Source: a virus. From it: a stretch of DNA of 64,000 bases. Of the stretch, positions 9,001 through 64,000 are shown in pieces. The notes below the pieces were generated by a model that was given only the letters and a program-made list of their open reading frames with translations, did no database searches and was not told the DNA's origin. The DNA is taken from IMG/VR virus record IMGVR_UViG_3300032116_015700, positions 27,094 through 91,093 of that record. One strand, written 5' to 3'. Both the position numbers and the translations under genes were made by a program. Each line of letters starts with the position of its first letter. Position 1 is the stretch's first letter.

Positions 9001-12000
9001 TCCCCAGTTATTATATGCACCACCACCAAAATAAATTACGTTACCATCATAATAGTTAAGGTACAATTGATACCCACTACCAGCATCCAAATGTAAGTTA
9101 CCATTTGTAGATGCTACCGAAGGAGTACCACTATCAACTAACCCTTGTCTACCATCAGTACCAACATAAAGATACGCTCCCCAAGTTGGATTTGGGCCAA
9201 ACAAAATACCACCACGCATTCTTCCTGCGGATTGGGAAGTTGAATTAGGGTCTATATAATAACCACTATCATTTGCATCATAGAATATAGTTCCATAAAC
9301 CGAACCACCAAAGTATGCAATAGGACTACCACTTTCTCTACCTATGTAAGCAAATTGGTTATTACCAGAGGTATTATCCATAAATCTTACATAAGAGTTG
9401 TTGTTATTATCATTTGAGTCAACCCTTAAAATAATATCATTAAATGAGTTTATACTTATTGAATCACTAAACGAACCATTTAAATCAGTAGATGCAATAC
9501 CATGATAATAATATAAATCATAACTAGCGTTCCAGTCAAATGAAATGTATGCCATTCTAGTTAGATACGCACTATATGTTCCGTAAGTTCCCCAAATTGA
9601 ATATTCAGAACCAACTCTAAACGAACCCTGTGCTCTTATATACGAATCAACATAAACATTTCTACCACCACTAGAACGAATCCAAGTACTATCTTGCATA
9701 TACCATCCGCCACCCCAACCAAATCTAAGCTCCTCATCTTTAAGGAAGGTTGATGTACCTCTACCAAATACAATTGCATCGTTATTACCTAACAATTGTA
9801 CTGAACCATTTATGAATAATCTATTATTAGTTATACTACCAACAGTTGCTGAGTTGTCTGATGCGGTGTATGAAAAATCCGATGTTGATATACCAACTCT
9901 TTCAGATGAATCAGAATATAGGACTAAGTTTCCACCATATCCAGTTCTGTTAAATTCAAATCCGTTTAAGTTCCATATTTGTCTTCCACCACTCGCATAT
10001 GTTCTCGTCTGCCAACTTCCTAATGAACCATTACTATGTCCAAAGTAAATAAAATTAGCACCGGTGATACCCATATCACCATTTACATTTATACCAGAAA
10101 CATCCCATGCTGCTCCTGAAGAACCAACAGCTAATTGTTGTAGTCTTGATTGTCCATCACCATCTATACGATATGCTGAGTTTGCTAAATCATAGAAAAT
10201 ATATGTTTGAAGATAGTTGTTGTATATACCCCAACCATCAACTCTTACGTTCAAATCACCACTGTCCGAACTCATGCGGAATTCTCCAGCAGCTCCATAC
10301 ATTCCTATTCCAGTATATCCCCAATCATTATATCCAAATCTTAATCTACCACCATATGAACTACCATTCCAATAAGGAATTGTTACTGATTGTTTAAATT
10401 CTTCATGAGTTGCCTCTCTAATTCTTGGTGCATAAAAATATGTTTTACTTCCGTTCACACCACCATAACAAGTACCAAATCTCATTTGTACTCTACGAGT
10501 TGATGAGTGCATTACACCATCTGCATTTGAGTTTGTATTATCAATTACATTTGATGATGTTGATGCGTATCTATCTACCCCTTCCGTATTTCCTTGAGGT
10601 GATGGAGTTCTCCAGCTTCTAAATTTATGAACTAATTTAACCCATGTACCACCAGTATTTAATGGTGATGTATGGAAATACGGATTTGAACTTATACCCG
10701 TACCATCAGTCCTTTGCTCATTCCATCCAACATAAAGGTTATCATTACCTGTACTTCTTACCCATACGATGAATTCATAATCTTTTTCAGCATTAACTTC
10801 TACCCATTCGGTAGTGTACCATTGATAACAACCTGAAGGGTTACCATTACCGGTAGAAACGTGCGCTTGAACAACTGTGCCATCAATGAATGTAATTGCT
10901 TCATATATACCACTACCATTTACACCAACATCCGTACTTCTTACGTTTAGTGTTGCACCACCTAAATTTTGTGGATATACAGTATTAAGTCTTGAAGAGC
11001 CTGCTGGGTCTAAATAATAGTATGTATCATTATAATCATAATAAATTGGTGAACGCATATCGGTTACACCATAAACTCTATTATAGAATATTTCACTACC
11101 ATTTAAGTAATATGTACTTTGATTATTAAGGAACATATTACCATTTACTTCCTTTCTAATATCCCAACTTGCCCAAGCTCCATTTAAAAATCCGTAGTTA
11201 GCACCAGTACCGTAAATTTGTACTTTATAACTACCACCACTATTTTGTAATAATAATCCTACATCAGAGTTATTATTCTGACTTCTGATTGCAATATTAG
11301 AACCATTGTTTGATGTATAATAATGTCCAGCAATTGTTGCGTTAGCAAATGTTGGTGAGTCAGTTGTTCTTACATCCTGATTCATATTTGCTGCATAAGG
11401 ATACGATGTTGTATCCATTATACGTTTCCACGCACCCCAAGATGTACTTGAACCATATCTCAACCACATATTACCATTATCCGTAAATCCTAATTCATTT
11501 GCTCCGCCGCCACTCCAATCAGTAGTTGAACCATATTTTCTAAAGTACATTACGCCATTGTAAGTACCACCATCATTTAATCCATTTGTAGAATTTTGTT
11601 TGAAATCAAATCTAACGCCCTGATTTGCGTTTTGTGTTTGTGGTGTACTAGCTGTTGCTCTTGTATCTTGTACATTTATAAATGTTGCAGTTGTTGCAGT
11701 TGTTGCATTTCCAGATAAACTACCAACAAAAGTATTTGCTGTTACTTGATTAAAAGTTACATTATCAGTAGTACGCAGATTTTGGTTCATTAAGTAAACC
11801 TCTGTAGCTCCTTGACCGGTATCAATAGTACCTGTAAGAACCACATTACCATTTACATATAAAGTATTATCCGCTGTCCATCTATCATTTGATTCATCCC
11901 AATAAAACGAAACAGTTGCTGAAGAACCTCTCCTTACTTCAATACCAGCATTTTCAGTTGGTGCACCTGAAGTAAAGTTTGAGTTTAACGTTATAATATT

Positions 12001-16713: not shown

Positions 16714-19700
16714 TTAACTAATATTTTTTCCTACTACAAATCCGTAATATGTTGTACCACCATTAAATGTAAAGAATGTTAATACATCCGTACCGGCTGA
16801 TGTTAATACAGGTGCTGTACCACCTGGCCAATCAACACTTGCTGGCCATGTTATAGCAAATGCTCCCGCATTTACTGTTGTTAAAGTAAATCCAAACGCG
16901 TTTGAAGCAGGTGGATTACTAAATGCTATTGTTGCGGCTCCATTAAATTGTCTTCTAAAGTTATTACCGGTTGAAAGGTCAATTGTTACACTTCCACCAG
17001 TTCCTTGGTCTGCATAAGTTTCTCTAAATGTTGTTGCTGATATGAAAGTACTTGCAGCAATTGAAGTTGTTACTGTCACATTTCCGGTAATAGCCAATGT
17101 ACTACCATTGAATGTCATATTATCTTCAACTCTTACATTCGGAGGTGTTCCTTCTAATGTTAATACACCATTATCAAGCGTACCACTAAATGATGCGAAT
17201 CCAGAAGTACCATTTGTACCATTTACACCAGAACTACCGTTTGTCCCCGATGTTACTCCTAATGCTGAAGTACCAGACGTTCCACTTACACCAGCACTAC
17301 CCGATGTACCAGATGAAATTCCTGGTGTTGATGTGCCCGAAGAACCCGATGTTCCACTAAATCCATCAGTACCAGATGTACCAGAAGTAAAGCCTGGAGG
17401 AGTTGTTCCTGAAGTACCTGATGTACCTGCGTCTCCTTGCGAACCTTGTGCTCCAGATGTACCAGAAGTTCCACTACTTCCAAAGAATGTACCATTTAGA
17501 CCAGAACTACCAGAAGTGCCAGATGTACCATCGGTACCTGTACTACCAGAGCTTCCAGCTGAACCATTTGTTCCATTTACACCCGAAGTGCCATTTGAAC
17601 CAGAGCTTCCTGCAGTTCCACTACTTCCAAAGAATGTACCATTTAGACCAGAGGAACCCGAACTACCAGATGTTCCATCAGTACCACTTACTCCAGAACT
17701 ACCTGCGGTGCCAGTTGAGCCTGAACTACCCGATGTTCCACTACTTCCAAAGAATGTACCATTTAATCCACTGCTACCTGAACTACCTGAAGTACCAGAT
17801 GTTCCACCGGTTCCGTCCAATCCAGATGAACCTGCGGTACCTGTACTACCCGAACTTCCTGCGGTACCAGATGAACCAAAGAATGTACCATTTAATCCTG
17901 AACTACCAGAAGAACCTGATGAACCAGCTGAGCCAGTTGTACCTCCACTACCAGATGTACCCGATTCGCCTGAAGAACCAGAAGAACCCGATGAACCACT
18001 ACTACCAAAGAATGTACCATTTAGACCAGAACTACCTGAAGAACCCGAACTTCCACTTATACCCGATGTACCGTCTACGCCACTTGTCCCTCCGGTGCCC
18101 GATGTACCTGTGGTACCAGATGAACCAAAATAAGTTCCATCTAAACCAGATGTACCTCCACTACCCGAAGTGCCATCAGTACCAGAGAGCCCGCTAGAGC
18201 CTGAAGTTCCATCTAATCCAGATGAACCTGCAGTACCAGTGGTACCGTTTGTACCCGATGTACCCGAACTTCCAAAATATGTACCATCTAAACCAGATGT
18301 ACCTGCTGAGCCAGTTGTACCATCCGAGCCGCTACTACCAGAGCTTCCTCCACTACCAGATGAACCAGAACTACCCGAACTTCCCGATGTACCTGATGAA
18401 CCAAAGAACGTTCCATTCAAACCAGAAGAACCGGATGAGCCAGAACTACCAGATGTACCGGATGTGCCTCCACTTCCACTACTACCATCGGTACCAGATG
18501 AGCCGGATGTGCCACTACTTCCATCTATACCACTCGTACCATCAGAACCAGTTGTACCAGATGAGCCCGTTGTTCCTGAACTACCAGATGAACCTGCACT
18601 ACCCGATGAACCTGCTGAACCAGATGAGCCATCAGTACCGCTACTACCATCACTGCCAGAGGTGCCCGAAGTACCTTCAGAGCCGGTTGTACCAGAAGAC
18701 CCGGTTGTACCAGATGAACCTGATGTTGATGATGAACCCGATGAACCCGAACTACCTGAGCTTCCACTTGTACCATCAATTCCACTTGTGCCATCAGAGC
18801 CAGTTGTACCGGATGAACCCGTTGTGCCACTGCTACCTGCGGTGCCAGAACTTCCTCCCGAGCCGGAACTACCATCAGTACCCGAAGAACCTGCAGTTCC
18901 AGAGGAACCAGAACTACCCGATGAACCTGATGTACCCGAACTTCCTGAACTTCCTGATGAACCTGAGCTGCCCGCTGAACCGCTACTACCATCAGTACCA
19001 GATGAACCATCACTTCCGCTTGTACCAGAACTACCCGAACTTCCTGAACTTCCTGATGAACCAGATGTGCCAGATGTACCCGATGTACCGGATGTGCCAT
19101 CAACACCTGAAGAACCTGCAGTACCAGAGCTTCCAGATGTACCCGAAGAACCTGTTGTACCAGATGAACCCGTTGTGCCTGAGCTGCCACTAGTACCACT
19201 ACTACCAGATGTTCCTGAACTTCCAGAACTACCAGATGAACCTGATGAACCTGTGGTACCAGAACTTCCACTTGAGCCAGAACTACCCGAACTACCAGAT
19301 GTTCCCGATGTGCCATCTACTCCGCTTGTTCCTGAACTTCCTGAAGTACCTGCTGAACCCGTAGTACCAGATGAGCCGGAACTTCCTGAGGTGCCACTTG
19401 TACCGGATGTGCCCGATGTGCCTCCACTACCTGAAGTACCTGATGTGCCCGCTTCACCACTACTACCTGAAGTTCCCGAAGTACCAGATGTACCATCTGA
19501 ACCAGATGTTCCCGATGAGCCTCCACTACCAGAACTACCACTTGTGCCGCTTGTACCAGATGTACCACCCGTACCTGCAGTTGCAGATGAACCAGAACTT
19601 CCTGATGTACCAGAACTTCCTGAGGTGCCAGATGAGCCTCCGGTACCAGTTGTACCTGATGTGCCTGCAGTACCTCCTGAACCAGAAGTACCTCCACTAC

Positions 19701-22700
19701 CTGATGTTGCAGATGTACCAGAACTACCCGAACTTCCTGAGGTGCCAGATGTACCAGAACTTCCTGATGTGCCACTTGTACCAGAAGAACCAGATGTGCC
19801 TCCACTACCTGATGTTCCCGATGTACCATCTGAACCAGTTGTACCAGAACTTCCAGATGTACCAGAACTTCCTGAGGTGCCACTTGTGCCAGAAGAACCC
19901 GATGTGCCACTTGTGCCAGATGTGCCGGATGTGCCCGAACTTCCAGAACTACCAGATGTGCCGGAGCTTCCACTTGTACCTGCAGTGCCACTACTTCCAG
20001 ATGTACCAGAACTACCAGATGAACCTGTTGTACCAGAGCTTCCGCTTGTACCAGAGCTGCCGCTAGAACCTGATGAGCCGGAAGTACCAGATGAGCCGGA
20101 ACTTCCTGAACTTCCGCTAGAGCCAGAGCTTCCGGAAGTTCCAGCAGTACCAGATGAACCAGAACTACCAGAAGAACCTGATGAACCATCGGTACCAGAT
20201 GTGCCACTAGAACCCGAACTACCTGCAGAGCCAGTTGAGCCAGAAGTACCAGAAGTTCCCGATGAACCAGATGAACCATCAAAACCAGAAGTACCACCTG
20301 TACCAGAAGAACCTACCGCTGCTGCTACGTTTCTATATGCTAATCTTTTTGTTATTGGGTCCCAAATTACCACCTCATTTGAAGAACCAGATGGTAAACT
20401 TTGTAATGCTACACTACTACTAAAAAATACACTTCCACTTACACCTAAACTTCCACTAATTGTAAGTGATGCATTTATTGTTTGGTTTGTATTGATGTTT
20501 AAGAATGATGATGTATCGGATGATGGGGTATTTAATGCAAACATTGCATAAGATGCAGTTCTTGCAAAAGTTATACTATCCATTCCCAATGGACCATCAA
20601 CATCAGATGAAAGTACATAGGATGCTGTCAATGATGTTTGTGCTAATCCACCATTTATAGTTACTAATACACCATCCGAGCCAGATGCAATTACATCAAC
20701 ACCCGAACCACTAAAGTTAATTTTAGCAACTTGAGATTTTGTTAATGAACCGGTATGGAAAATAAATAAATCAGTTCCTCCACCTTGTCCAGCATTTAAT
20801 GCGTAAGATGCGGTTAATGCGTAAGATGAACTTACTGCACTAAATACCGCCATTGAAGATGTTTGGTTATTTCTTACATATTCATTTGCATTTGCTAATG
20901 ATGCAGATAAAGCCGAAAGTGATGCTGAATCAAATCCAGTTACCGCATCAGCAAATCCTGCTTTAACAGCGTATGATGCAGAAAGTACAGTACCAAACAC
21001 TCTATCACCAGGTATCGTACCATTAATCAATGAACCACCACTACCAATTACAACGTGTCCAGAGGTTAATCCAGCAAATATTAATTGAATAGTATCATCA
21101 TCAATTGATTTTACAGTACCAGGTATAATTTGGTCTTCCGAACCTGTTGCGTAAACTTGTACAACTGGATATCTAATACCCAAATTATGTACAATTGTTA
21201 AAGTACTTACATTATTAAAAGATACAGTTTCAGTTAATGAAGTTTCAGGTTGTGGTACAAAATATCCTCTCGCTTCGTCAAATCTTAAAATATCATATTC
21301 AGCAGATGCAGTTGGTCCTACTCCTTGGAAATTGTATGTACCCAAGAATGAACCACTAACTAATGGAGAAAATAAATAATGACTTGCCGTAATTTCATTT
21401 GCTCTCAATCTACCATCAACATAAGAATCACCCCAAACAAATGAAGATGTATTAACTACAAATCCTTTATCAGGTGAAATTGATGCCGTTGCTGAACCAC
21501 TCTTTAATATAAATGTTTCAAACGATAAGTTAGCAATATTGATATTTGTCAATCCACTACCATCACCAAAGAAAACAGAACCAGAGTTTGCTACAATGTT
21601 TCCACCTGTAACGAACAATGCACCGGTTACACTTAAGTTACCAGATACGAATGTTCTAGTTCCAATTTGCAATCCTTTATTTGGTGATATTACTGCTTCA
21701 ACTGAACCAGACTGAATTCTATCAATCTTTAAATCATCTAATGCTTCCGGTGGGATATTAAATAATCCACTACCATCTCCGTCATATCTTGCAGCAGTAA
21801 TTGGTACGTTTACATTTAATATATTTGGGTCAATAATAGCAACGCCTGAGCCAGAGTTAATTTTAAATAACTCCAAGTTTTCAATCGCATCAGGTGGGAT
21901 ATTAAATAATCCGCCACCATCACCAAAATATATTGATGCTGTAATTGCACCACTAACCGCCAATGAGGCTGTAATTTCTGCTTTAAATGAGCCAGATTGA
22001 GGTGAAGTTATGACTTGAAATCTATCACCACTTGCTACCGATGCGGTTGCACTACCACTAGCAATCAAAGGAGATGCTGCCGCAACTACGTTTGTTAATT
22101 GAGAACCATCTCCAACAAATGCAAACGCTGTAATACTACCACTAACATCTACAGAACCAGTAATTCTAGTTCCAATTTGTGAACCAGTTGCTCCGGTTGT
22201 TACAATAAATGTATCTCCACTTTGAACTGATGCTGTTGCCGAACCACTACCAATGAATGGTGCAGCTGCCGCTTGTACATTAGTAATATAAGAACCATCA
22301 CCAACAAGATATTGTGCTTTAACACTTCCACTTACATCAATAGAACCAGTGAATCTAGAACCATATTGTACATCCAAACCACTACCAGTTGCTGCAGTTG
22401 TAATAATAAATGTATCACCACTTTGAACGGATGCAGTTGCACTACCACTAGCAATTAATGGTGCTGCTGCCGCTTGTACATTTGTAATATATCTACCGTC
22501 ACCAAATAAGAATTCAGTTGCTCTTATACTTCCACTAACTTCAATAGAACCAGTGAATTGAGAACCAACTTGCGATTGTGTGAATGGAGTTATTACTCTA
22601 AATCCTTCATCAGGAGTAACCGATGCAGTTACTGAACCTGATTTGATTTCAGTACTAATAAGTGCATCTTCTGTTAATGCTGATTTTGGAATACGTCTTA

Positions 22701-25700
22701 AATAAGTACCTTCAGCGTATATGAATGAACTAGAATCAATAAATAATCCGCCACTTATATCTGATATAAATAAACTACCACTTACTGAAACAGAACCTGT
22801 AAATTGAGATGCAATAGATGCCGTAAACGAACCATCTTCACCAAATGATGATGTAAATGGAGTTAGTACAACGAATCCAAAATCAGGAGATACCGATGCT
22901 GTTACGGATCCAGATTTAATTTCAGCAGATATTAATGCATCTTCAGTAAGTGCTGAACGAGGTATGTTTCTTAAATATGCACCCTCTCCAAAGAAATTAG
23001 AAGATGATTCAAGCAATAATGCTCCAGAAGTTGCATTTATTATCATACTACCAGTAATCAATAAGCTACCGGTAAATTGTGAACCACTATCTACGGATTC
23101 TACTTTAAATCCATAATCAGGTGCTACTGAAGCGGTTACGCTTCCACTCGCTATACGGAATACTTCTTCTGATAATGCTGAACGAGGTATATCAAATAAT
23201 CCTCTACCACTACCACTATACATTGAAGCGGTTAATGTACCTTCTATTTTAGTTGCACCAATAAATTTAATTTCCGCAGGTATTACAATTGAATCTACAA
23301 TATTCATTGTACCTGCCATAGATGAATGCAATTGACAGTTATAATACAAAACATTTGGAGAACCAGATGGTGGAGTAAATGTTATTGTTCCATTATCAGT
23401 ACCATTGTTAGATACTCCACTATTATATTGATTTGCAGTACCTGTTGTTTGTGTTGTCTTAATTAAGAATGGGTGTCCACTTGCATTTATGTTAAAAGTA
23501 TGAGTGACACCTCTTACTAAAGTAAGTGTTGGATTTGAACCTTGTATTGAACCACTAAACACATACTCACCACTTCCATTATTAGTTACATTATAAACAG
23601 GAAATAAAGATGAAGTTAGTACTTCTCTTGCCGATGATGAAACTATAAAACTACCACTAATTGTGGAATATGTATTAACCTCAAATCCTCTATCAGGTGC
23701 TATTGATGCTGTTACACTTCCACTAAATATTTTTGTAGAATCAATTGCTAAATTGGCTAATGTAATATTTGTTAATTTAGAACCATCCCCAACAAAGAAA
23801 GAACCACTTTCTACATAAAGACTTCCACTTACTCTTACACTACCAGTAAAGAATGAACCACTTGCGGCAGATTTAACTACAAATCCAAAATTAGGTGAAA
23901 CTGATGCCGTTACTGAACCAGATTTGATTTCAGTTGATATCAATGCATCTTCACTTAATGCATTTCTTGGAATATTTCTTAAATAAGTACCTTCACCAAA
24001 ATATGCAGATGATGAATCTAAAATTAATGAGCCCGATGTTGTTGTTACTCTTAAACTTCCAGTTATAGCAACACTACCCGTTATTCTAGAACCCAAATCT
24101 GACGATTCAACGATAAATCCTCTATCAGGTAATGCAGAGGCAGTAACACTACCACTTGCAATTCTAAATAATTCTTGCGAAAGTGCTGAAAACGGAATAT
24201 CTGTCAATCCAGCACCACTACCACTAAATACCGATGCGGAAACTCCCATTCTAAATCTTGCACTGCCACTTACACTTAAACTACCACTAAATGCAGAACC
24301 ACTTGCTACTGAATTTACTACAAATCCAAAATTAGGTGCTACTGAAGCGGTAACGCTACCACTAAAGATTTTAGAAGTATCTAAATCAGATATTGCGGAA
24401 CGAGGTATATCAAATAAATTTCTACCGCTACCAGAATATGATGAACCGGATGATAAGAATACACCACCTCCACTTATGAATAAACTTCCACTAAATCTTG
24501 AACCACTTGTTATTGATTCTACTCTAAATCCAAAATTAGGTGCTACCGATGCGGTTACACTACCACTAGCAATTAACGAAATATCAAAAGATAAAGCAGA
24601 ACGTGGAATATCGTAAAGAAATCTACCACTACCACTAAATGAAGAACCCGTCTCCAAAAATACACCACCACCAGTAATAAACAACGAACCAGTGAATCTA
24701 GAACCAAATTCAGCAGATTCAACTTTAAAACCAACACTATCAGGATTTACTGATGCGGTTACACTACCACTTGAAATTCTGTTTGATACTTCCGATGGAA
24801 CATTTCTCAATCCACTACCATCTCCTACAAAAGAACCAGATACTAAAGAAGCACTGACTATAAAAGCTCTCAAACTACCACTTATATCAACAGAACCTGT
24901 AAATTGAGAACCATACGCTGAGCCCGTTCTATCGGTTTCAACTTTGAATCCAAAATCAGGTGTTGTTGATGCGGTAATTGAACCTGATGCTATTCTAAAT
25001 GCATCACCGGTAAATGCAGAACGTGGAATATTAAATAATCCACTACCATCTCCTTGAAAGAATGAACCACTAAAAGAGCCTGTAAATTCCCTTGCTCTTA
25101 CATAATCTCTTACATACAATCCACCACTTATAGCAGTATTGCCTTCAAATAAAATTCTATCTTGAAGATATAAGTTATCAACTATACTCATTGATGCACC
25201 CATCGCAGAGTGGAATTGACACTGATAAAATAAAGTATCAGGTGAACCCGAAGGAGGTGTGAAATATACTGAACCACTATCTTCACCGTTATTTACAACT
25301 CCAGTATTATATTGTGCTGCTGTACCAGTTGTGGCAGTTGTTTTTATAAAGAAAGGATGCCCGTTTGCATTTACTTCAAAGCGGTAAGTTACCCCTCTTA
25401 CTAAAGTCAATGCTGGGTTTTGTCCACTTGCTGCACCATCAAATACATATGCAGATGAACCAGCTGAAGTTACATAAAAATAATTTGGTATTGATGAGGT
25501 TGCTAGCGGTTCTGCTGAAGATGATACTACAAAACTACCACTAATTGTTGAACGAGTATTTACAGTAAATCCGTAATCTGGTGTAATTGATGCGGTATAT
25601 GAACCACTAAATATTTTTGATGTATCTAAATCAGATATTGCCGTTTTTGGAATATCAAAAAGGAATCTACCGCTACCAGAATAAGAACCAGAATATAATT

Positions 25701-27255
25701 CTACTCTACTACCACTTATTTTTAAACTACCGGTAAATTGAGAACCACTTGCTTCTGATATTACCTGAAATCCTTTATCCAAAGAAACTGATGCGGTCAC
25801 CGAACCAGTCTGAATTCTTGTTGCTGCTACAACTTCTTCTGCTAAAGCGGATAATGGAATATTAAATAATCCCTCACCACTACCAGAATAAAAAGAACCA
25901 TCTGCTAATTGAACAATACCACCGGTTACAAATAAAGAACCAGTAAATTTTGAACCACTAAAAGGTGATGTTACTACAAACCCCCTATCAGGAGAAACTG
26001 ATGCAGTTACGCTACCACTTTTAATTTCTACTGATATTAATGCATCTTCGGTAAGTGCATTTCTTGGAATATTTCTTAAATAAGTACCTTCACCAAAATA
26101 TGCAGATGATGAACCCAAAATAAGTGCACCGCTTGTAGCAGTAATAATCATACTTCCGGTAATAAACACACTACCTGTAATACGAGAACCACTATCTACT
26201 GAAATTACTTGAAATCCAAAATTTGGTGCTACTGAAGCAGTTACTGAACCGGATTTGATTTCGGTACTAATTAAAGCATCTTCAGTAAGTGCCGAACGAG
26301 GTATTTCTCTCAAATATTTACCTTCACCATAATATACTGAACCTGACCTTAATTGTATAGAGCCACTAAATGGATTTATAAATAAACTACCAGATATATC
26401 AACACTACCAGTAAATTCTGAACCACTCTCTATTGATTCTACTCTAAATCCAAATTCAGGTGTTACAGATGCGGTTATAGAACCTGTTGCCAATTTAGTA
26501 GCTTCAGGCAGATTTATTAAATTTCTACCATCACCAAAAAATGAACCAGTAAATGAACCGCTAAAAGAACCTGTCAATTCCGCAGAACCTGTGAAAGTAC
26601 CAAAAGCGCTTGCACTTCCTATAAATGAACCCGTAAGATTACCTGATATAGTTGAACCAGAAATCACATATGCATTTAATCTATCTCTTACTTCTACCGA
26701 ACCTGTAAATTGTTGTATATCAGTTTCCTCATCACCAAATACATTTGAACCTGATGAGTAAATTATTGAAGAAGAAATATAAGATACTAAAATCTGCTCA
26801 GCGTATATTGTATCATCTACATATAAATCACCTTGTATCCTAGTATTTGTATTGACTAATAAATCATTATTAATAAAAGAGGCAGTTGCCGAACCACTTG
26901 CTATAAAAGTTGCATCAGGTAGATTTCTTAATCCACTACCATCACCACTAAACGAACCGGAAAAAGAGCCGGAAAAAGAACCCGTAAAACTACCACTTAA
27001 TGATGTAGCACTACCAGTAAAAGAACCTGTAAATTGTCCAGTTACTCTATCTAAATCTAAACTCCTTACAAATCCTCTATTACCCTGGTCATCCGAAACT
27101 ACTATCGCAGGGGAGCCAGAAAGTGAAGCAGAAAAGTTTGGAACACCTAAATTTGGTTCAACTTGAGATAAATCTATAAATTGATACCTATCCGGTGTTA
27201 CATTTTTGGGTGAAACTACCCTTACCCTACCCGTTAAAAGATTACTTATTGCCAT
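16714..27255 (-). CDS. Giant Ser/Gly/Thr-rich fibre protein (3513 aa)
   Basis: About 22 SGSVTAS-type beta repeats, two cupredoxin-like domains, a ~1040-aa Gly-X-Y tract, and a C-terminal WPASVDWPGGTAP-type tip domain. Confidence 0.8.
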   Translation of the reverse strand: MAISNLLTGRVRVVSPKNVTPDRYQFIDLSQVEPNLGVPNFSASLSGSPAIVVSDDQGNRGFVRSLDLDRVTGQFTGSFTGSATSLSGSFTGSFSGSFSGSFSGDGSGLRNLPDATFIASGSATASFINNDLLVNTNTRIQGDLYVDDTIYAEQILVSYISSSIIYSSGSNVFGDEETDIQQFTGSVEVRDRLNAYVISGSTISGNLTGSFIGSASAFGTFTGSAELTGSFSGSFTGSFFGDGRNLINLPEATKLATGSITASVTPEFGFRVESIESGSEFTGSVDISGSLFINPFSGSIQLRSGSVYYGEGKYLREIPRSALTEDALISTEIKSGSVTASVAPNFGFQVISVDSGSRITGSVFITGSMIITATSGALILGSSSAYFGEGTYLRNIPRNALTEDALISVEIKSGSVTASVSPDRGFVVTSPFSGSKFTGSLFVTGGIVQLADGSFYSGSGEGLFNIPLSALAEEVVAATRIQTGSVTASVSLDKGFQVISEASGSQFTGSLKISGSRVELYSGSYSGSGRFLFDIPKTAISDLDTSKIFSGSYTASITPDYGFTVNTRSTISGSFVVSSSAEPLATSSIPNYFYVTSAGSSAYVFDGAASGQNPALTLVRGVTYRFEVNANGHPFFIKTTATTGTAAQYNTGVVNNGEDSGSVYFTPPSGSPDTLFYQCQFHSAMGASMSIVDNLYLQDRILFEGNTAISGGLYVRDYVRAREFTGSFSGSFFQGDGSGLFNIPRSAFTGDAFRIASGSITASTTPDFGFKVETDRTGSAYGSQFTGSVDISGSLRAFIVSASLVSGSFVGDGSGLRNVPSEVSNRISSGSVTASVNPDSVGFKVESAEFGSRFTGSLFITGGGVFLETGSSFSGSGRFLYDIPRSALSFDISLIASGSVTASVAPNFGFRVESITSGSRFSGSLFISGGGVFLSSGSSYSGSGRNLFDIPRSAISDLDTSKIFSGSVTASVAPNFGFVVNSVASGSAFSGSLSVSGSARFRMGVSASVFSGSGAGLTDIPFSALSQELFRIASGSVTASALPDRGFIVESSDLGSRITGSVAITGSLRVTTTSGSLILDSSSAYFGEGTYLRNIPRNALSEDALISTEIKSGSVTASVSPNFGFVVKSAASGSFFTGSVRVSGSLYVESGSFFVGDGSKLTNITLANLAIDSTKIFSGSVTASIAPDRGFEVNTYSTISGSFIVSSSAREVLTSSLFPVYNVTNNGSGEYVFSGSIQGSNPTLTLVRGVTHTFNINASGHPFLIKTTQTTGTANQYNSGVSNNGTDNGTITFTPPSGSPNVLYYNCQLHSSMAGTMNIVDSIVIPAEIKFIGATKIEGTLTASMYSGSGRGLFDIPRSALSEEVFRIASGSVTASVAPDYGFKVESVDSGSQFTGSLLITGSMIINATSGALLLESSSNFFGEGAYLRNIPRSALTEDALISAEIKSGSVTASVSPDFGFVVLTPFTSSFGEDGSFTASIASQFTGSVSVSGSLFISDISGGLFIDSSSFIYAEGTYLRRIPKSALTEDALISTEIKSGSVTASVTPDEGFRVITPFTQSQVGSQFTGSIEVSGSIRATEFLFGDGRYITNVQAAAAPLIASGSATASVQSGDTFIITTAATGSGLDVQYGSRFTGSIDVSGSVKAQYLVGDGSYITNVQAAAAPFIGSGSATASVQSGDTFIVTTGATGSQIGTRITGSVDVSGSITAFAFVGDGSQLTNVVAAASPLIASGSATASVASGDRFQVITSPQSGSFKAEITASLAVSGAITASIYFGDGGGLFNIPPDAIENLELFKINSGSGVAIIDPNILNVNVPITAARYDGDGSGLFNIPPEALDDLKIDRIQSGSVEAVISPNKGLQIGTRTFVSGNLSVTGALFVTGGNIVANSGSVFFGDGSGLTNINIANLSFETFILKSGSATASISPDKGFVVNTSSFVWGDSYVDGRLRANEITASHYLFSPLVSGSFLGTYNFQGVGPTASAEYDILRFDEARGYFVPQPETSLTETVSFNNVSTLTIVHNLGIRYPVVQVYATGSEDQIIPGTVKSIDDDTIQLIFAGLTSGHVVIGSGGSLINGTIPGDRVFGTVLSASYAVKAGFADAVTGFDSASLSALSASLANANEYVRNNQTSSMAVFSAVSSSYALTASYALNAGQGGGTDLFIFHTGSLTKSQVAKINFSGSGVDVIASGSDGVLVTINGGLAQTSLTASYVLSSDVDGPLGMDSITFARTASYAMFALNTPSSDTSSFLNINTNQTINASLTISGSLGVSGSVFFSSSVALQSLPSGSSNEVVIWDPITKRLAYRNVAAAVGSSGTGGTSGFDGSSGSSGTSGTSGSTGSAGSSGSSGTSGTDGSSGSSGSSGSSGTAGTSGSSGSSGSSGSSGSSGTSGSSGSSGSSGTSGSSGTTGSSGSSGTSGSSGTAGTSGSSGTSGSSGSSGTSGTSGTSGTSGSSGTSGTSGSSGTSGSSGTTGSDGTSGTSGSGGTSGSSGTSGTSGSSGTSGTSGSSGSSGTSATSGSGGTSGSGGTAGTSGTTGTGGSSGTSGSSGTSGSSGSSATAGTGGTSGTSGTSGSSGSGGSSGTSGSDGTSGTSGTSGSSGEAGTSGTSGSGGTSGTSGTSGTSGSSGSSGTTGSAGTSGSSGTSGVDGTSGTSGSSGSSGSSGSSGTTGSSGSSGSSGSSGTSGSSGTSGSSGTTGSSGTTGSSGTSGSSGTAGSSGVDGTSGTSGTSGTSGSSGSSGSSGSSGTSGSDGSSGTDGSSGSAGSSGSSGSSGSSGTSGSSGSSGSSGTAGSSGTDGSSGSGGSSGTAGSSGTTGSSGTTGSDGTSGIDGTSGSSGSSGSSGSSSTSGSSGTTGSSGTTGSEGTSGTSGSDGSSGTDGSSGSAGSSGSAGSSGSSGTTGSSGTTGSDGTSGIDGSSGTSGSSGTDGSSGSGGTSGTSGSSGSSGSSGLNGTFFGSSGTSGSSGSSGSSGSGGSSGSSGSDGTTGSAGTSGLDGTYFGSSGTSGTNGTTGTAGSSGLDGTSGSSGLSGTDGTSGSGGTSGLDGTYFGSSGTTGTSGTGGTSGVDGTSGISGSSGSSGSSGLNGTFFGSSGSSGSSGSSGESGTSGSGGTTGSAGSSGSSGSSGLNGTFFGSSGTAGSSGSTGTAGSSGLDGTGGTSGTSGSSGSSGLNGTFFGSSGTSGSSGSTGTAGSSGVSGTDGTSGSSGSSGLNGTFFGSSGTAGSSGSNGTSGVNGTNGSAGSSGSTGTDGTSGTSGSSGLNGTFFGSSGTSGTSGAQGSQGDAGTSGTSGTTPPGFTSGTSGTDGFSGTSGSSGTSTPGISSGTSGSAGVSGTSGTSALGVTSGTNGSSGVNGTNGTSGFASFSGTLDNGVLTLEGTPPNVRVEDNMTFNGSTLAITGNVTVTTSIAASTFISATTFRETYADQGTGGSVTIDLSTGNNFRRQFNGAATIAFSNPPASNAFGFTLTTVNAGAFAITWPASVDWPGGTAPVLTSAGTDVLTFFTFNGGTTYYGFVVGKNIS
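17200..20313 (-). repeat. ~1040-aa nearly proline-free Gly-X-Y tract
   Basis: (GSS/GTS/GTT/GSA/GTD)n with eight GL[N/D]GT[F/Y]F interruptions in the distal part. Confidence 0.9.
21400..26950 (-). repeat. ~22 degenerate 65-80 aa repeats (SGSVTASVxPxxGFxV...FTGS...GxGxxLxNIP)
   Basis: Counted by eye in the translation; boundaries approximate. Confidence 0.8.
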
Positions 27256-61766: not shown

Positions 61767-62186
61767 TTACTCTTTTACAACTTTCAATCCACTAGAACCA
61801 TCTGGCATAGTTTGTTGAGATTGTTGAGATTGTTGTCTTTGCATCTCAGCCAATTGTTTTCTAGTTGGTGCGCCAGGTTGGTACTGAATAGTTCCATCTT
61901 GAATATTGATTCTACCTTGTGGATATTTTTCATCCAATCCATCAATAATTTCTCTTAATTGAGAATTTAGTGCTTTAAATTCATCTTCACCCTTTTCTAA
62001 AAAGTCATCCATTCTGATGATTTCTTCATTGATTTCTTTCTTACGAATGTGAATTTGTCCAAACTCTACAATCAAACTTTGAATTTTTTGATTATAATCG
62101 TTAATAGAATTTAGAATATCTGCATCTATTTTTGCAGTTTCTATCGTAATTTGTTGTTGTTGTGGTACATTATCTAAACCTGCCAT
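61767..62186 (-). CDS. Hypothetical coiled-coil protein
   Basis: 139 aa, helical, KYPQGRINIQDG. Confidence 0.55.
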   Translation of the reverse strand: MAGLDNVPQQQQITIETAKIDADILNSINDYNQKIQSLIVEFGQIHIRKKEINEEIIRMDDFLEKGEDEFKALNSQLREIIDGLDEKYPQGRINIQDGTIQYQPGAPTRKQLAEMQRQQSQQSQQTMPDGSSGLKVVKE

Positions 62187-62229: not shown

Positions 62230-62976
62230 TTATTTTTCAAACACCGAAACTCCCCTTTTTTTCACAACTTCTCCCGCACAATAGTTTCCCCATTTTATAG
62301 ATTCTTCTACATCATTAGAACTTAAATACTTTGCAACAAATCCTGCTACAAATGTATCACCCGCACCACTTACATCGGCATTATCTATTTTTTTAGTTTT
62401 AATTAGATTCCCCTTATACGATGCTCCTTTACCATCCAACGTTATAATTATTTTTTCGTCTAACCATTCATTTTCTACAATTATATCGTGATTATTTTGT
62501 GCCTCAAATCTATTTAATTTTATATATGATATATTTCTACACCAATCACCCAATGTTTTTTTGGTATCAAGTATGATTAAATGATGTAATTTAGAAATTT
62601 CAAATATATCATTTTCGGTTAGAAACCCTTTACAATAATCCGAAATAACAACCGCATCAAATTCTGATAAAGGTGGTAGTTCGCTAATATTGATTCTTTT
62701 TACTAAATCATTTTCATCTACCCTTAAATAAAGCTCATTTGTATCTTTATTTATATATCTGGTTTTAATAATATTTCCTTCACCACAAAAAGTTTTTACT
62801 TTTATATCCATTGATTTCAGATTTGCAGCAGTGTTAGCAGCCATACCCAAATTTACAACCGTTTCAATCGGATTAAAAATAGGACCGTTTCCTTCGGGTG
62901 ATTTTCTAGTTGATGTCCCATATATGAAAACATCATTGCATTTCTCACCAATTACTAAAACTTTATATTTTGACAT
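62230..62976 (-). CDS. rfaE1: Heptose-7-phosphate kinase (HldE kinase half, PfkB family)
   Basis: RKSPEG-x-x-PI, GMAANTAANL, VVISDYCKG, DVSGAGDTFVAG, VVKKRGVS. Confidence 0.85.
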   Translation of the reverse strand: MSKYKVLVIGEKCNDVFIYGTSTRKSPEGNGPIFNPIETVVNLGMAANTAANLKSMDIKVKTFCGEGNIIKTRYINKDTNELYLRVDENDLVKRINISELPPLSEFDAVVISDYCKGFLTENDIFEISKLHHLIILDTKKTLGDWCRNISYIKLNRFEAQNNHDIIVENEWLDEKIIITLDGKGASYKGNLIKTKKIDNADVSGAGDTFVAGFVAKYLSSNDVEESIKWGNYCAGEVVKKRGVSVFEK

Positions 62977-63355
62977 CTCCTAATATTTTTGATGTACTTA
63001 TATTATTTATTTTTTGAAAAAATTCTATTTTGGGAACATATTCCACGCCAATTATTTGATGATATTGATAATCATCACCTATTACCATAACATCTGGCTC
63101 CCATTCACGTATTCTATTAATAAGTTCGTCATCCGTACCAAAAGATACAACAGAATCAACAAAACGAATAGATGAGATAAAATCCATCCTATCAGAAAGG
63201 GTATTAAAAGGTCTTTCCCTACCTTTTTTATCCCTAACTCTTTTATCTTCGTCCAATCCAACCCTAACTGAACCAAACTTTGAAGCGTGTTCAAGCAAAC
63301 GAATATGACCAATATGTACAATATCAAATGTACCATTTACCCAAACTTTTTTCAT
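62963..63355 (-). CDS. rfaE2: Heptose-1-phosphate adenylyltransferase (HldE transferase half)
   Basis: NGTFDIVHIGH, KGRERPFN, VDSVVSF, PDVMVIGDDY, STSKI; overlaps the kinase gene. Confidence 0.85.
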   Translation of the reverse strand: MKKVWVNGTFDIVHIGHIRLLEHASKFGSVRVGLDEDKRVRDKKGRERPFNTLSDRMDFISSIRFVDSVVSFGTDDELINRIREWEPDVMVIGDDYQYHQIIGVEYVPKIEFFQKINNISTSKILGDVKI

Positions 63356-64000
63356 TATAAAAACTTTTCCAATTCTTTAATAACCATTTCGGATGTTATT
63401 GATTTAGTACATTCAAATTGTCTTTCAGTACCTTTGTGGTCTGGACACCAATTCCAATCGCCTGGATCAAGTCTTAAACGATTAAAACACCCCTCACATT
63501 TTCCTTGCGGTGCTCCTATACGAATACAATCTTCCATCTCTGCCCACTTATAAGAAAATCCACTTATTAATACAGTTGGTACATCCAATGCCCAGCTTAA
63601 CCAACTTAATCCACTACCTATTCCAATAAATGCCTTTGATTTCAACATTTCATCCATAACTAATTCAATTGGACCATTTGGATGCCTAACTATACCGGAA
63701 GGTAATTGATTTCCCATATAGTTCTCACCTTCTTTTGAAAGTAGTTTTACAATGTAACCTCTATTATTTAACCAGTCTACAATATCCTGCCATCCTGTTG
63801 GGTTATTCCAAAATTTTGATTGTGCAGTTCCATGTATTCCAATACAAACCTGCTTTAAACCTGATTCTTTGTGGGGATTTCTATCTTTTAATCTTGGTTT
63901 TATTTCTCTAAAGTTTAAACCCAATATATCCGAACACATTTTTTGCATCGTTTGTTGTTTCGGGTCAATTGGATTTTTATAAACGTTTATTGAACTATCT
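63355..64000 (-). CDS. TibC/AAH (BAHT)-family protein O-heptosyltransferase, C-terminal part (5' end outside the window)
   Basis: Frame is open to the edge. VCIGIHGTAQSKFWNNPTGW, FIGIGSGLSWLSWA-x-x-x-PTVLISGFS, and the four-Cys motif CEGC...WCP...QFECT match TibC/AAH as I recall them. Confidence 0.85.
   Translation of the reverse strand, partial: DSSINVYKNPIDPKQQTMQKMCSDILGLNFREIKPRLKDRNPHKESGLKQVCIGIHGTAQSKFWNNPTGWQDIVDWLNNRGYIVKLLSKEGENYMGNQLPSGIVRHPNGPIELVMDEMLKSKAFIGIGSGLSWLSWALDVPTVLISGFSYKWAEMEDCIRIGAPQGKCEGCFNRLRLDPGDWNWCPDHKGTERQFECTKSITSEMVIKELEKFL

What the first reader, a model, noticed from the sequence alone, without database searches (positions are those of the whole stretch)
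62230..64000. Phage-encoded ADP-heptose plus protein O-heptosyltransferase cassette at the head of the virion gene block: candidate virion glycosylation system
Seen: three overlapping genes (GT-B transferase, HxGH adenylyltransferase, PfkB kinase) directly upstream of the morphogenesis genes. Established: the kinase and adenylyltransferase are the two HldE activities of ADP-heptose synthesis. The transferase motifs (AQSKFWNN-x-x-GW, SGLSWLSW...LISGFS, CxxC...WCP...FEC) are those of the Fe-binding BAHT family (TibC/AAH), which heptosylates serines of AIDA-I/TibA repeats rather than LPS. Inference: no autotransporter is present in the window, but over 10,000 aa of Ser-rich virion proteins are, so the phage may make its own donor sugar and coat its particle with heptose. 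A host lacking ADP-heptose would explain why the donor pathway is carried.
Basis: partly seen in the sequence, partly recalled or inferred. Interest (0 to 1): 0.93.

Follow-up and report, generated by a model that had tools for sequence, protein, structure and literature searches.

The report
Phage TibC-like fibre-glycosylation cassette
A large uncultured freshwater phage carries a true relative of TibC, the bacterial enzyme that attaches heptose sugars to adhesins, plus two heptose-activating enzymes; comparison with many phages and bacteria suggests it sugar-coats the phage's own proline-free, serine-rich collagen-like fibres, though no experiment has tested this.

Summary
Three translationally coupled minus-strand genes lie at 62230-63999: a PfkB kinase, an HxGH nucleotidyltransferase and a TibC/Aah-type transferase. 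The contig end cuts the transferase gene. A full-length ortholog (90% identical) passes the TIGR04414 cutoff (276 vs 200 bits). Its model superposes on TibC at TM 0.85, against 0.45 for WaaC. It keeps the catalytic Asp, Thr/Lys/Trp and all four iron-finger Cys, but not the adenine-contacting Arg-286 or Pro-300. Orthologous loci show a GT1-methyltransferase-GT25 fusion just upstream. The donor genes are accessory: of 80 related loci, 38 have both, 14 only the nucleotidyltransferase and 28 neither. A relative rated 100% complete has no gmhA or gmhB, so the 'host lacks ADP-heptose' idea is not supported. The phage enzymes form a clade separate from the classical autotransporter-linked enzymes. 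Across 37 dereplicated viral lineages, 20 have a proline-free Gly-Ser/Thr-Ser/Thr collagen-register protein within 3 kb. Bacterial members of this clade sit next to secreted (GTS)n proteins. This phage has 1431 residues of such tracts in two giant fibres, which are the most likely acceptors. No glycan has been shown. This scan has flagged the same system on other DNA (102 notes, at least 78 genomes). I found no paper describing it.

The parts
63355..63999 (-). C-terminal 214 residues of a TibC/Aah-family (BAHT) protein O-glycosyltransferase. The gene is cut at its 5' end by the contig end; the full length in orthologs is about 382-385 aa.
   Evidence: TIGR04414 165 bits over model positions 164-373. 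PDB TibC 4rap E 5e-35. Thr-226, Lys-230, Trp-305 and Cys-339/342/358/370 equivalents are kept. The ortholog L002:9488-10645 scores 276 bits against a cutoff of 200 and its model gives TM 0.85 to TibC.
62963..63355 (-). HldC-like nucleotidyltransferase (130 aa), the predicted heptose-1-phosphate adenylyltransferase. It is accessory within the phage clade.
   Evidence: TIGR02199 97.6 bits (cutoff 181.5) against TagD-type 62 bits. phrog_7878 119 bits. HIGH and ISTSKI motifs are in the translation. Present in 52 of 80 related loci and next to BAHT in other viral lineages.
62230..62976 (-). Compact PfkB-family sugar kinase (248 aa), the predicted HldA-like heptose-7-phosphate 1-kinase. It is accessory within the phage clade.
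   Evidence: PF00294 62 bits and TIGR02198 95 bits (cutoff 345). The only PDB hit is HldA 4e84, E 9e-7. phrog_8133 226 bits. 35-42% identical to kinases in cyanophage heptose clusters that also hold phosphoheptose isomerase. Present in 38 of 80 related loci.
16714..27255 (-). 3513-aa giant fibre and candidate acceptor. It has 954 residues of proline-free Gly-X-Y tract (window 17401-20313) with 69-93% Ser/Thr at the X/Y positions.
   Evidence: Pfam Collagen 335 bits. Composition 22.7% Ser and 34% Ser+Thr. Tract table. The same tract type neighbours BAHT genes elsewhere.
6052..14670 (-). 2872-aa tail fibre with a C-terminal Peptidase_S74 chaperone domain, and candidate acceptor. It has 477 residues of proline-free Gly-Ser/Thr tract (window 12190-13971).
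   Evidence: Pfam Collagen 91 bits and Peptidase_S74 55 bits. Tract table. The fibre next to BAHT in L279 has the same architecture.
61767..62186 (-). 139-aa coiled-coil-like protein of unknown function that always follows the cassette. Whether it belongs to the system is open.
   Evidence: Present directly after the cassette in 80 of 80 related loci. No Pfam, NCBIfam or PHROG match. Weakly similar to the 85-aa ORF on the other side of the cassette.

Best explanation
This is the 3' part of a phage protein-glycosylation cassette. Its key enzyme is a cytoplasmic TibC/Aah-family O-glycosyltransferase. During infection it most likely puts a heptose from an ADP-activated donor onto Ser/Thr of the phage's own proline-free Gly-Ser/Thr-Ser/Thr collagen-register tracts, which lie in the 3513-aa and 2872-aa fibres, before these are built into virions. 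In orthologous loci a GT1-methyltransferase-GT25 fusion sits directly upstream, beyond this contig's end; it would extend and methylate the glycan. The kinase and nucleotidyltransferase carry out the two HldE steps (heptose-7-P to heptose-1,7-bisP, and heptose-1-P to ADP-heptose). They act as an optional booster of donor supply that still needs the host's isomerase and phosphatase. Shown here: family membership, fold, conserved catalytic residues, gene order, variable presence of the donor genes, and the recurrent genomic pairing of this enzyme clade with Gly-Ser/Thr tract proteins. Inferred: the acceptor, the sugar, and the effect on the virion.
For: Enzyme identity. TIGR04414 gives 165 bits on the fragment and 276 bits on the full-length ortholog (cutoff 200), against 27-29 bits for WaaC-type models. 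The AF2 model (pLDDT 91) matches TibC at TM 0.85, E 8e-34, against WaaC at 0.45 and WaaF at 0.51. Asp-110, Thr-226, Lys-230, Trp-305 and the four iron-finger Cys are conserved (with residue roles from PMC4358343).

Module. The order GT fusion - BAHT - [NTase] - [kinase] - p139 - p938 - p230 - TerL is conserved in 80 loci. GT1 is fused to BAHT in Microcystis phage Mel-JY01, in a 735-kb huge phage and in most of the nearest cluster representatives. Those fusions also carry FkbM- or CmcI-type sugar methyltransferases, and one has a PLOD collagen-glycosyltransferase domain. The NTase and kinase sit next to BAHT in several other viral lineages.

Acceptor. Of 37 viral BAHT clusters (70% dereplication), 26 have a Ser/Thr-rich, Pro-poor Gly-X-Y tract of at least 12 triplets in the locus, 20 within 3 kb and 12 within 1.5 kb. 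Several such fibre genes start 26-64 bp after the BAHT stop on the same strand, and they are collagen or Peptidase_S74 fibres. In bacterial genomes, 11 of the 21 clusters closest to the phage enzyme have a (GTS)n secreted protein or lipoprotein within 1.2 kb, against 1 of 21 classical clusters (Fisher p = 0.0014). A tree splits the classical enzymes from this clade with 100% support: 1 of 21 against 37 of 58 with tracts, p = 1.6e-6 uncorrected. This phage has 1431 residues of exactly such tracts. No autotransporter target repeat is present.
Against: In this phage's own clade the tract-bearing fibres are not adjacent to the cassette. They lie 36-57 kb away, and only 1 of 80 loci has a tract within 10 kb. 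The acceptor assignment for this genome therefore rests on association seen in other lineages. The association statistics are not corrected for phylogeny, and there is no unbiased set of control viral loci. Loci that hold only the related methyltransferase also often have tracts (15 of 35, counted). One BAHT-positive huge phage has no collagen tracts, and one BAHT-negative relative has them. Arg-286, which contacts adenine N1 in TibC, is Val here, and Pro-300 is Gly. The kinase and NTase both score below their curated cutoffs, and the NTase's PDB hits do not single out HldC, so the sugar nucleotide is not certain. TibC recognises a beta-helix; whether this clade can act on a collagen-register chain is unknown. 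No glycan has been observed on any such phage.
Confidence: 0.55

Rival explanations
1. The cassette glycosylates a different phage protein, not the collagen-register tracts. Candidates are the 4363-aa repeat protein, the small Ser-rich proteins (126, 129, 299 and 310 aa), or the conserved 139-aa neighbour.
For: In this clade the cassette is not adjacent to the tract-bearing fibres. p139 follows the cassette in 80 of 80 loci. Several non-collagen virion proteins are also enriched in [ST][GAS]S tripeptides. Classical BAHTs recognise a strand-loop-strand structure, not a triple helix (PMC4358343).
Against: Across other lineages the recurrent neighbour is specifically the Gly-Ser/Thr tract protein. 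p139 is only 8.6% Ser+Thr.
Confidence: 0.15
2. The genes remodel the host rather than the virion. They would heptosylate a host surface protein or an envelope glycoconjugate during infection, for example to block superinfection. This is the role long proposed for the sugar-gene clusters of T4-like cyanophages.
For: Homologous kinase and NTase pairs sit in cyanophage sugar clusters with phosphoheptose isomerase, epimerases and capsular-polysaccharide genes, and with no BAHT. Bacterial members of the same BAHT clade sit next to exported lipoproteins, so exported host proteins with (GTS)n tracts could be targets.
Against: The cassette lies inside the structural and packaging gene block and is co-oriented with it. 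The phage encodes very large amounts of the tract that neighbours this enzyme clade elsewhere. The enzyme groups with protein-modifying TibC, not with LPS heptosyltransferases.
Confidence: 0.12
3. The enzyme is a TibC-fold protein glycosyltransferase, but the sugar is not ADP-heptose. The kinase and NTase would make a different nucleotide sugar, or another activated alcohol phosphate.
For: Arg-286 (adenine contact) is replaced by Val and Pro-300 (heptose C6 selectivity) by Gly. The kinase scores 95 bits against a 345-bit cutoff and the NTase 98 against 181. The NTase's top PDB hits are ethanolamine-phosphate and glycerol-3-phosphate cytidylyltransferases as well as an HldC-type protein. No gmhA or gmhB is present. 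Mel-JY01 has the transferase but no HldC-like gene.
Against: The best profile hits for both enzymes are the two HldE domains. The only PDB hit of the kinase is HldA. Homologs in cyanophages sit beside phosphoheptose isomerase. Trp-305, Thr-226, Lys-230 and Asp-110, which contact the heptose and beta-phosphate, are conserved. The pair recurs next to BAHT in independent lineages.
Confidence: 0.2
4. The transferase modifies phage DNA, as a glycosylated-base anti-restriction system.
For: Phage GT-B enzymes commonly glycosylate DNA, and this is the default reading in some surveys of large phages (PMC12619734).
Against: There is no similarity to DNA glycosyltransferases; the best structural matches after TibC are LPS heptosyltransferases. 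The iron finger that contacts the protein substrate in TibC is conserved. The gene lies in the structural block, and bacterial clade members pair with secreted proteins.
Confidence: 0.03

Closest known systems
TibC (ETEC) and Aah/AAH (AIDA-I system): bacterial autotransporter heptosyltransferases, BAHT family (TIGR04414; PDB 4RAP, 4RB4; PMC4358343)
   Same: Same family by curated HMM (276 bits in the full-length ortholog). Same fold: N-terminal beta-barrel, GT-B core, thumb and iron finger, at TM 0.85. The catalytic Asp, the beta-phosphate Thr/Lys, the heptose-contacting Trp and four Fe-binding Cys are conserved. It is a cytoplasmic enzyme encoded near a highly repetitive Ser-rich protein.
   Different: It is encoded by phages and forms a separate clade from the classical enzymes (100% support split). 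There is no autotransporter and no TIGR04415 target repeat. The recurrent neighbour is a proline-free Gly-Ser/Thr collagen-register protein. It is usually coupled or fused to GT1 and sugar methyltransferase domains. Arg-286 is Val and Pro-300 is Gly. Oligomeric state and sugar are untested.
HldE (bifunctional), or split HldA/HldC, of ADP-heptose biosynthesis
   Same: The kinase and NTase have these as their best profile matches, have intact PfkB and HxGH motifs, and are adjacent and translationally coupled.
   Different: Both score far below the curated cutoffs. The kinase is about 70 residues shorter than the HldE kinase domain. GmhA, GmhB and HldD are not encoded. The pair is dispensable within the phage clade.
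Heptose and sugar-gene clusters of T4-like cyanophages (P-SSM2, S-SM2, S-CAM1 and others)
   Same: They hold a homologous split kinase and NTase pair (35-42% and 37-40% identity) in large myoviruses.
   Different: The cyanophage clusters also hold phosphoheptose isomerase, epimerases and other sugar enzymes but no BAHT, and they lie outside the structural block.
Virion glycosylation in mycobacteriophages (Freeman et al. 2023, cited in PMC12619734) and chlorovirus PBCV-1 capsid glycosylation by multidomain virus-encoded GT-GT-methyltransferase enzymes (from my own knowledge)
   Same: Virus-encoded glycosyltransferases placed among structural genes. A multidomain GT plus methyltransferase enzyme is predicted to build a methylated glycan on virion proteins.
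   Different: The enzyme families differ (GT2/GT-A there, a GT9-related BAHT here). The acceptors differ (capsid and tail-tube C-termini or the capsid protein there, collagen-register fibre tracts here). Those systems have been shown experimentally; this one has not.
O-glycosylated collagen-like proteins such as Bacillus anthracis BclA, and the glycosylated-Thr cuticle collagen of Riftia (from my own knowledge)
   Same: Gly-X-Thr/Ser collagen-register repeats carry O-glycans. In Riftia, glycosylated Thr stabilises a triple helix that is poor in hydroxyproline.
   Different: The glycosyltransferases and sugars are unrelated, and none is viral. The stabilising role here is only a hypothesis.

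Membership tests
BAHT (TibC/Aah) protein O-heptosyltransferases | Score above the curated cutoff of the equivalog model TIGR04414 (200 bits) | tested here: met
   The window fragment scores 164.9 bits over model positions 164-373 only, because the gene is truncated. The full-length ortholog, 90% identical over the shared part, scores 276.3 bits. LPS heptosyltransferase I scores 27-29 bits.
BAHT (TibC/Aah) protein O-heptosyltransferases | TibC protomer fold: N-terminal beta-barrel, GT-B core, beta-hairpin thumb and iron-finger insertion | tested here: met
   AF2 model of the ortholog: pLDDT 91.3, pTM 0.87. Foldseek gives TibC 4rap TM 0.85, rmsd 2.6 A over 373 columns, E 8e-34, against WaaC TM 0.44-0.46 and WaaF 0.51.
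BAHT (TibC/Aah) protein O-heptosyltransferases | Catalytic base Asp-110 and donor-contact residues Thr-226, Lys-230 and Trp-305 | tested here: met
   Alignments to 4rap: the LGD Asp is seen in the ortholog (this part is missing from the window), and Thr, Lys and Trp are seen in the window fragment. Residue roles are from PMC4358343.
BAHT (TibC/Aah) protein O-heptosyltransferases | Arg-286 contacting adenine N1, the basis of ADP specificity | tested here: not met
   It aligns with Val in the window fragment and in the ortholog, and there is no Arg or Lys within three residues. The TibC paper calls the contact weak.
BAHT (TibC/Aah) protein O-heptosyltransferases | Four-Cys iron finger (Cys-339, 342, 358, 370) | tested here: met
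   All four align in the window fragment (CEGC...WCP...FEC) and are invariant or nearly so in alignments A1 and A2. Iron binding itself is not testable here.
BAHT (TibC/Aah) protein O-heptosyltransferases | Cognate autotransporter substrate with O-heptosylation target repeats (TIGR04415) encoded nearby | tested here: not met
   There is no TIGR04415 match in this contig, in the 274-kb relative rated 100% complete or in the 136-kb relative. The recurrent neighbours are Gly-Ser/Thr collagen-register proteins instead.
BAHT (TibC/Aah) protein O-heptosyltransferases | Transfer of heptose from ADP-heptose to Ser; dodecameric ring | not testable with these tools
   This needs enzyme assays and oligomer analysis.
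ADP-heptose pathway (GmhA, HldE or HldA/HldC, GmhB, HldD) | Kinase and adenylyltransferase above the curated cutoffs of TIGR02198 and TIGR02199 | tested here: inconclusive
   The scores are 95.3 bits against 345 and 97.6 bits against 181.5. These are the best-scoring models, and the motifs are intact (GAGD and NRFE; HIGH and ISTSKI). The kinase's only PDB hit is HldA, while the NTase's PDB hits are mixed.
ADP-heptose pathway (GmhA, HldE or HldA/HldC, GmhB, HldD) | Complete pathway encoded (isomerase GmhA, phosphatase GmhB, epimerase HldD) | tested here: not met
   There is no gmhA or gmhB in G000, G001 (100% complete) or G002. There is no hldD, only a generic epimerase-like ORF (86 bits) far from the cassette in G001.
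Phage virion glycosylation systems | Glycosyltransferase genes embedded in the structural gene block | tested here: met
   The cassette lies between the tail-fibre and chaperone genes (in orthologs) and the terminase, portal and head genes, all on one strand.
Phage virion glycosylation systems | Glycan shown on virion proteins | not testable with these tools
   This needs virion mass spectrometry or glycan staining.

The most novel reading that the evidence does not exclude
A whole clade of TibC-like enzymes, spread across environmental phages and some bacteria, has a substrate class never described for this family: proline-free Gly-Ser/Thr-Ser/Thr collagen-register chains. Dense O-heptosylation, extended and methylated by the fused GT1 and methyltransferase domains, would take the place of hydroxyproline in stabilising or stiffening these triple helices. 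It would also give phage fibres, some with hundreds of triplets, a sugar coat that alters adsorption, protease resistance or recognition.
Probability: 0.35. Interest if true: 0.85.

Novelty: new variant of a known kind. Interest (0 to 1): 0.74.

Why it matters
BAHT enzymes are known only as virulence-associated modifiers of enterobacterial and Burkholderia autotransporters. Finding a large sister clade in phages and environmental bacteria, paired with a different repetitive substrate, would widen the family's biology. It would also add a second, mechanistically distinct example of phage-encoded virion glycosylation after the mycobacteriophages. It offers an explanation for how proline-free collagen-like fibres, which are common in large aquatic phages, could be stabilised. 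The idea is directly testable, because a cultured phage (Microcystis phage Mel-JY01) carries the enzyme and E. coli supplies ADP-heptose for co-expression assays. The variable presence of the donor genes gives a natural experiment on how phages secure nucleotide-sugar supply.

Tried and rejected
1. 'Host lacks ADP-heptose, so the phage carries the pathway' is rejected as stated. gmhA, gmhB and hldD are absent from a complete relative. The donor genes are absent from 28 of 80 close relatives. In the order of a Flavobacteriales MAG, gmhA, the HldA-like and the HldC-like genes co-occur in the same ~25 of 61 genomes, and most others lack all three.

2. I looked for a canonical BAHT substrate with TIGR04415 and found none.

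3. LPS or DNA glycosyltransferase identity is rejected on HMM scores and fold.

4. A whole-genome test of BAHT against collagen repeats (BAHT-positive 4 of 5, BAHT-negative 1 of 6) gives only p = 0.067 and few independent lineages. I treat it as weak.

5. The context of a close bacterial homolog in the Methylomicrobium lacus chromosome is housekeeping genes. My 60% Ser/Thr filter did not retain a tract in L187 itself, although a sister locus in the same cluster (L186) has a short one. This is uninformative.

6. PHROGs has no family for the transferase, and p139, p85 and p230 match nothing.

7. The GT1-MT-GT25 fusion has no sequence match in the PDB.

8. Promoter and terminator scans of 61500-64000 found nothing above chance.

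10. I did not use complex prediction or read laying. Enzyme-substrate prediction on a low-complexity tract was judged uninformative.

11. One alignment call failed on a frame error, one script failed on a frame bug and one search failed on a handle error. All three were repeated correctly.

12. The careful maximum-likelihood tree did not finish, so the tree I cite is the quick search with SH-aLRT support.
Full report
WHAT IS THERE. All genes in the window lie on the minus strand. At 62230-63999 there are three coupled ORFs: a 248-aa PfkB kinase (62230-62976), a 130-aa HxGH nucleotidyltransferase (62963-63355, overlapping the kinase by 14 nt) and a transferase (63355-63999, overlapping the NTase by 1 nt). 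The transferase ORF runs off the window. The window end is also the end of a 91,093-bp IMG/VR viral contig that CheckV rates 52% complete. The transferase is therefore truncated by the assembly, and only its C-terminal 214 residues are visible.

THE TRANSFERASE IS A TibC/Aah-FAMILY ENZYME. The fragment scores 164.9 bits (E 2.5e-48) on the NCBIfam equivalog model TIGR04414, over model positions 164-373. It scores 27 bits on LPS heptosyltransferase I. Its only PDB sequence hits are the two TibC entries (E 5e-35). A scan of viral contigs found 260 related loci. In the closest, L002 (90% identical over the fragment), the full-length gene is 385 aa. It scores 276.3 bits, above the 200-bit cutoff, and 29 bits for the LPS enzyme. 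An AlphaFold2 model of that ortholog (22-sequence alignment, pLDDT 91.3, pTM 0.87) matches TibC 4RAP at TM 0.85, rmsd 2.6 A over 373 columns, E 8e-34. WaaC reaches TM 0.44-0.46 and WaaF 0.51.

The TibC structure paper (PMC4358343) gives the functional residues, which I checked in the alignments:
- Kept: the catalytic base Asp-110 (the LGD motif, seen in the ortholog), Thr-226 and Lys-230 (beta-phosphate), Trp-305 (heptose O4), and the four iron-finger Cys (339, 342, 358, 370).
- Changed: Arg-286, which hydrogen-bonds adenine N1, aligns with Val. Pro-300, which sets D,D- against L,D-heptose selectivity, aligns with Gly.

THE DONOR GENES. The kinase and the NTase are best matched by the two HldE domains (TIGR02198 95 bits; TIGR02199 98 bits). 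Both are far below the curated cutoffs of 345 and 181.5. The kinase's only PDB hit is the heptose-7-phosphate kinase HldA (E 9e-7). The NTase hits several cytidylyltransferase-fold enzymes about equally. PHROGs has families for both (phrog_8133; phrog_7878, named for HldE) but none for the transferase.

Homologous split pairs are already annotated in T4-like cyanophages such as P-SSM2, S-SM2 and S-CAM1. In S-SM2 they sit in a sugar cluster with phosphoheptose isomerase and epimerases. This supports a heptose pathway and also shows the pair is not new in phages.

The rest of the pathway is missing. I found no gmhA, gmhB or hldD in this contig, in a 274-kb relative rated 100% complete (G001) or in a 136-kb relative.

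THE CASSETTE IS LARGER, AND ITS DONOR PART IS OPTIONAL. In orthologous loci the gene directly upstream of the transferase, overlapping its start, encodes a 723-aa fusion of GT1, a TylF/CmcI-like methyltransferase and GT25. Upstream of that lie tail-fibre and fibre-chaperone genes, or in other relatives a radical-SAM/SPASM protein.

A tblastn synteny table over 80 loci shows a near-universal order: p85 - GT fusion - BAHT - [NTase] - [kinase] - p139 - p938 - p230 - TerL.
- BAHT and p139 are present in 80 of 80 loci, and the GT fusion in 78.
- The NTase is present in only 52 and the kinase in 38.
- So 38 loci have both donor genes, 14 have the NTase alone and 28 have neither.

In that survey, strong gmhA, HldA-like and HldC-like hits co-occur in the same ~25 genomes, and most others lack all three. 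The pair looks like an auxiliary booster of the two nucleotide-consuming steps that still depends on the host's GmhA and GmhB. The host is not known. The closest cultured phages by TerL (56-57% identity) infect Flavobacterium and Microcystis.

WHAT IS THE ACCEPTOR? No autotransporter target repeat (TIGR04415) exists in these phage genomes. The window's virion proteins differ sharply in composition:
- The 3513-aa protein is 22.7% Ser and 34% Ser+Thr.
- The [ST][GAS]S tripeptide occurs at 8 per 100 residues in that protein.
- The same tripeptide does not occur at all in the portal, terminase, head and tube-type proteins.

The 3513-aa and 2872-aa fibres contain 954 and 477 residues of uninterrupted Gly-X-Y register. 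The X/Y positions are 69-93% Ser/Thr with no proline (Pfam Collagen 335 and 91 bits). Notes by first readers on this same genome had pointed to these tracts, and I used them as a lead.

Three observations tie such tracts to the enzyme.

(i) Fusions. In Microcystis phage Mel-JY01 the BAHT domain ends a 1226-aa protein that begins with GT1 and is annotated 'methyltransferase FkbM'. In a 735-kb huge phage it is fused to GT1, and it lies next to a fibre-like protein full of GTS/GSS triplets. An exhaustive search of 1.84 billion cluster representatives gave 721 clusters at E <= 1e-30. Most of the nearest are 600-1850-aa fusions with GT1 and FkbM- or CmcI-type sugar methyltransferases, and one has a PLOD collagen-glycosyltransferase domain.

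(ii) Neighbourhood. I fetched viral loci for two such fusion proteins and scanned all loci in six frames for Gly-X-Y runs of at least 12 triplets with at least 60% Ser/Thr and at most 10% Pro. After dereplication at 70% BAHT identity there are 37 viral clusters. Of these, 26 have such a tract in the +-10-kb locus, 20 within 3 kb and 12 within 1.5 kb. Tracts reach 919 triplets. In several cases the fibre gene starts 26-64 bp after the BAHT stop on the same strand. The neighbours are Collagen-positive, and one also has the Peptidase_S74 fibre chaperone, as does the window's 2872-aa fibre. As a rough null, about 11.5% of the G001 genome lies within 3 kb of a tract. On that null, 20 of 37 has p about 3e-10.

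(iii) Bacteria and phylogeny. A scan of cellular genomes gave 42 clusters. Among the 21 closest to the phage enzyme (36-55% identity), 11 have a tract within 1.2 kb. These tracts lie in small proteins with signal peptides or lipoboxes followed by (GTS/GSS)n. Among the 21 classical clusters (Burkholderia, Pandoraea, Kosakonia, Selenomonadales and others) only 1 does (Fisher p = 0.0014). A quick maximum-likelihood tree separates the classical enzymes (21 rows, 1 with a tract) from a clade holding all viral and the environmental bacterial enzymes (58 rows, 37 with a tract). The split has 100% SH-aLRT support (p = 1.6e-6).

The GT1 domain accompanies BAHT in most viral loci. The NTase and kinase pair recurs next to BAHT in several lineages whose BAHT is only 41-59% identical to this one.

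CAVEATS.
- In this phage's own clade the cassette is not adjacent to the tract-bearing fibres. They lie 36-57 kb away, and only 1 of 80 own-clade loci has a tract within 10 kb. The acceptor assignment here is therefore by analogy with other lineages plus the presence of the tracts in the same genome.
- The statistics are not corrected for shared ancestry.
- The only viral control loci are one lineage (immuto-like TerL loci, 0 of 80). Loci holding only the related methyltransferase also often have tracts.
- A whole-genome contrast (BAHT-positive 4 of 5 with collagen repeats, BAHT-negative 1 of 6) is only suggestive (p = 0.067).
- The sugar is inferred.
- It is not known whether a TibC-type enzyme, which grips a beta-helix in TibA, can work on these chains.
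- No glycan has been seen.

COMPARISON AND NOVELTY. Searches of the paper library found no article that puts TibC-family enzymes in phages, or that links heptosyltransferases with collagen-like proteins. JGI's pipeline already auto-names these proteins 'autotransporter strand-loop-strand O-heptosyltransferase', so the bare annotation is public. Phage virion glycosylation is known from mycobacteriophages (cited in PMC12619734), and the heptose kinase and NTase pair is known from cyanophage annotations. What is new is a phage and environmental clade of BAHT with a different predicted substrate and a fused glycan-extension machinery: a new variant of a known kind. This scan has met the same system repeatedly on other DNA (102 notes in at least 78 genomes), and follow-up reports reached the same reading. 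I retrieved those after my own analysis, and they are not independent evidence.

VERDICT. My confidence is:
- about 0.9 that the transferase is a BAHT-family protein glycosyltransferase;
- about 0.55 that the collagen-register fibres are its acceptors;
- about 0.65 that the sugar is heptose from ADP-heptose.

The contribution specific to this window is the complete HldA- and HldC-like pair, together with the finding that it is an optional, host-dependent add-on rather than a self-sufficient pathway.

Noticed in passing
window 58920-61736 (-): A 938-aa protein with an N-terminal NMNAT-like nucleotidyltransferase domain and DUF5661 sits between the cassette and the terminase genes. It is conserved in 77 of 80 related loci. 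Its counterpart in Flavobacterium phage immuto is annotated as NadR-type NMN adenylyltransferase. Why a phage keeps it in the packaging region is unclear.
   Followed up: partly
window 61767-62186 (-); L002:7030-7287: The 139-aa protein after the cassette and the 85-aa ORF before it are weakly similar to each other (24-45% identity, with hits landing in each other's genes). Possible paralogs therefore flank the glycosylation cassette. Neither matches any family.
   Followed up: partly
L077:3492-6961 (also L065, L036, L028, L040): In some relatives a 665-aa radical-SAM/SPASM protein and a 482-aa unknown protein lie between the fibre gene and the GT fusion. This hints at a further protein-modification step in the same island. 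A related rSAM gene also lies near BAHT in L276, L340 and L363.
   Followed up: no
L207:9172-10604 (Arenicellales chromosome), L184, L194, L196: Bacterial relatives of the phage-type BAHT sit next to small lipoproteins or secreted proteins made of (GTS/GSS)n. Two tandem ones in L207 end in poly-Asp tails. These are an undescribed class of likely glycosylated surface proteins.
   Followed up: partly
P0222 (1827 aa cluster representative): A single polypeptide combines GT1, a PLOD-type collagen glycosyltransferase domain (154 bits), DUF6625 (158 bits), an FkbM methyltransferase and a BAHT domain. It is a five-domain glycan assembly enzyme.
   Followed up: partly
L088:4705-5727 (huge phage LR756504): A class-1 fructose-1,6-bisphosphatase gene (FBPase, 212 bits) lies about 3 kb from the stand-alone BAHT of a 636-kb phage that has no collagen repeats. 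Some enzymes of this family also act on sedoheptulose bisphosphate, so a link to heptose precursor supply is conceivable but untested.
   Followed up: no
L082:4750-8430 (Microcystis phage Mel-JY01, PP395634): The GenBank product name 'methyltransferase FkbM' hides a 1226-aa fusion that begins with GT1 and ends with a BAHT domain (47% identical to this phage's enzyme). It is the only cultured-phage carrier found.
   Followed up: yes
genomes G008-G070 (order of a Flavobacteriales MAG): gmhA, a stand-alone HldA-like kinase (286-334 bits, just under the cutoff) and a stand-alone HldC-like adenylyltransferase co-occur in the same ~25 of 61 sampled genomes, mostly small ones of 1.6-3.4 Mb. They are missing together from most others, so the split ADP-heptose pathway is patchy in this order.
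   Followed up: partly
window 28275-41366 (-): The largest protein (4363 aa) is Ser-rich (12%) but has no Gly-X-Y tract and holds 27 Cys. It is a different kind of repeat protein from the two collagen-register fibres, and I did not examine it further.
   Followed up: no
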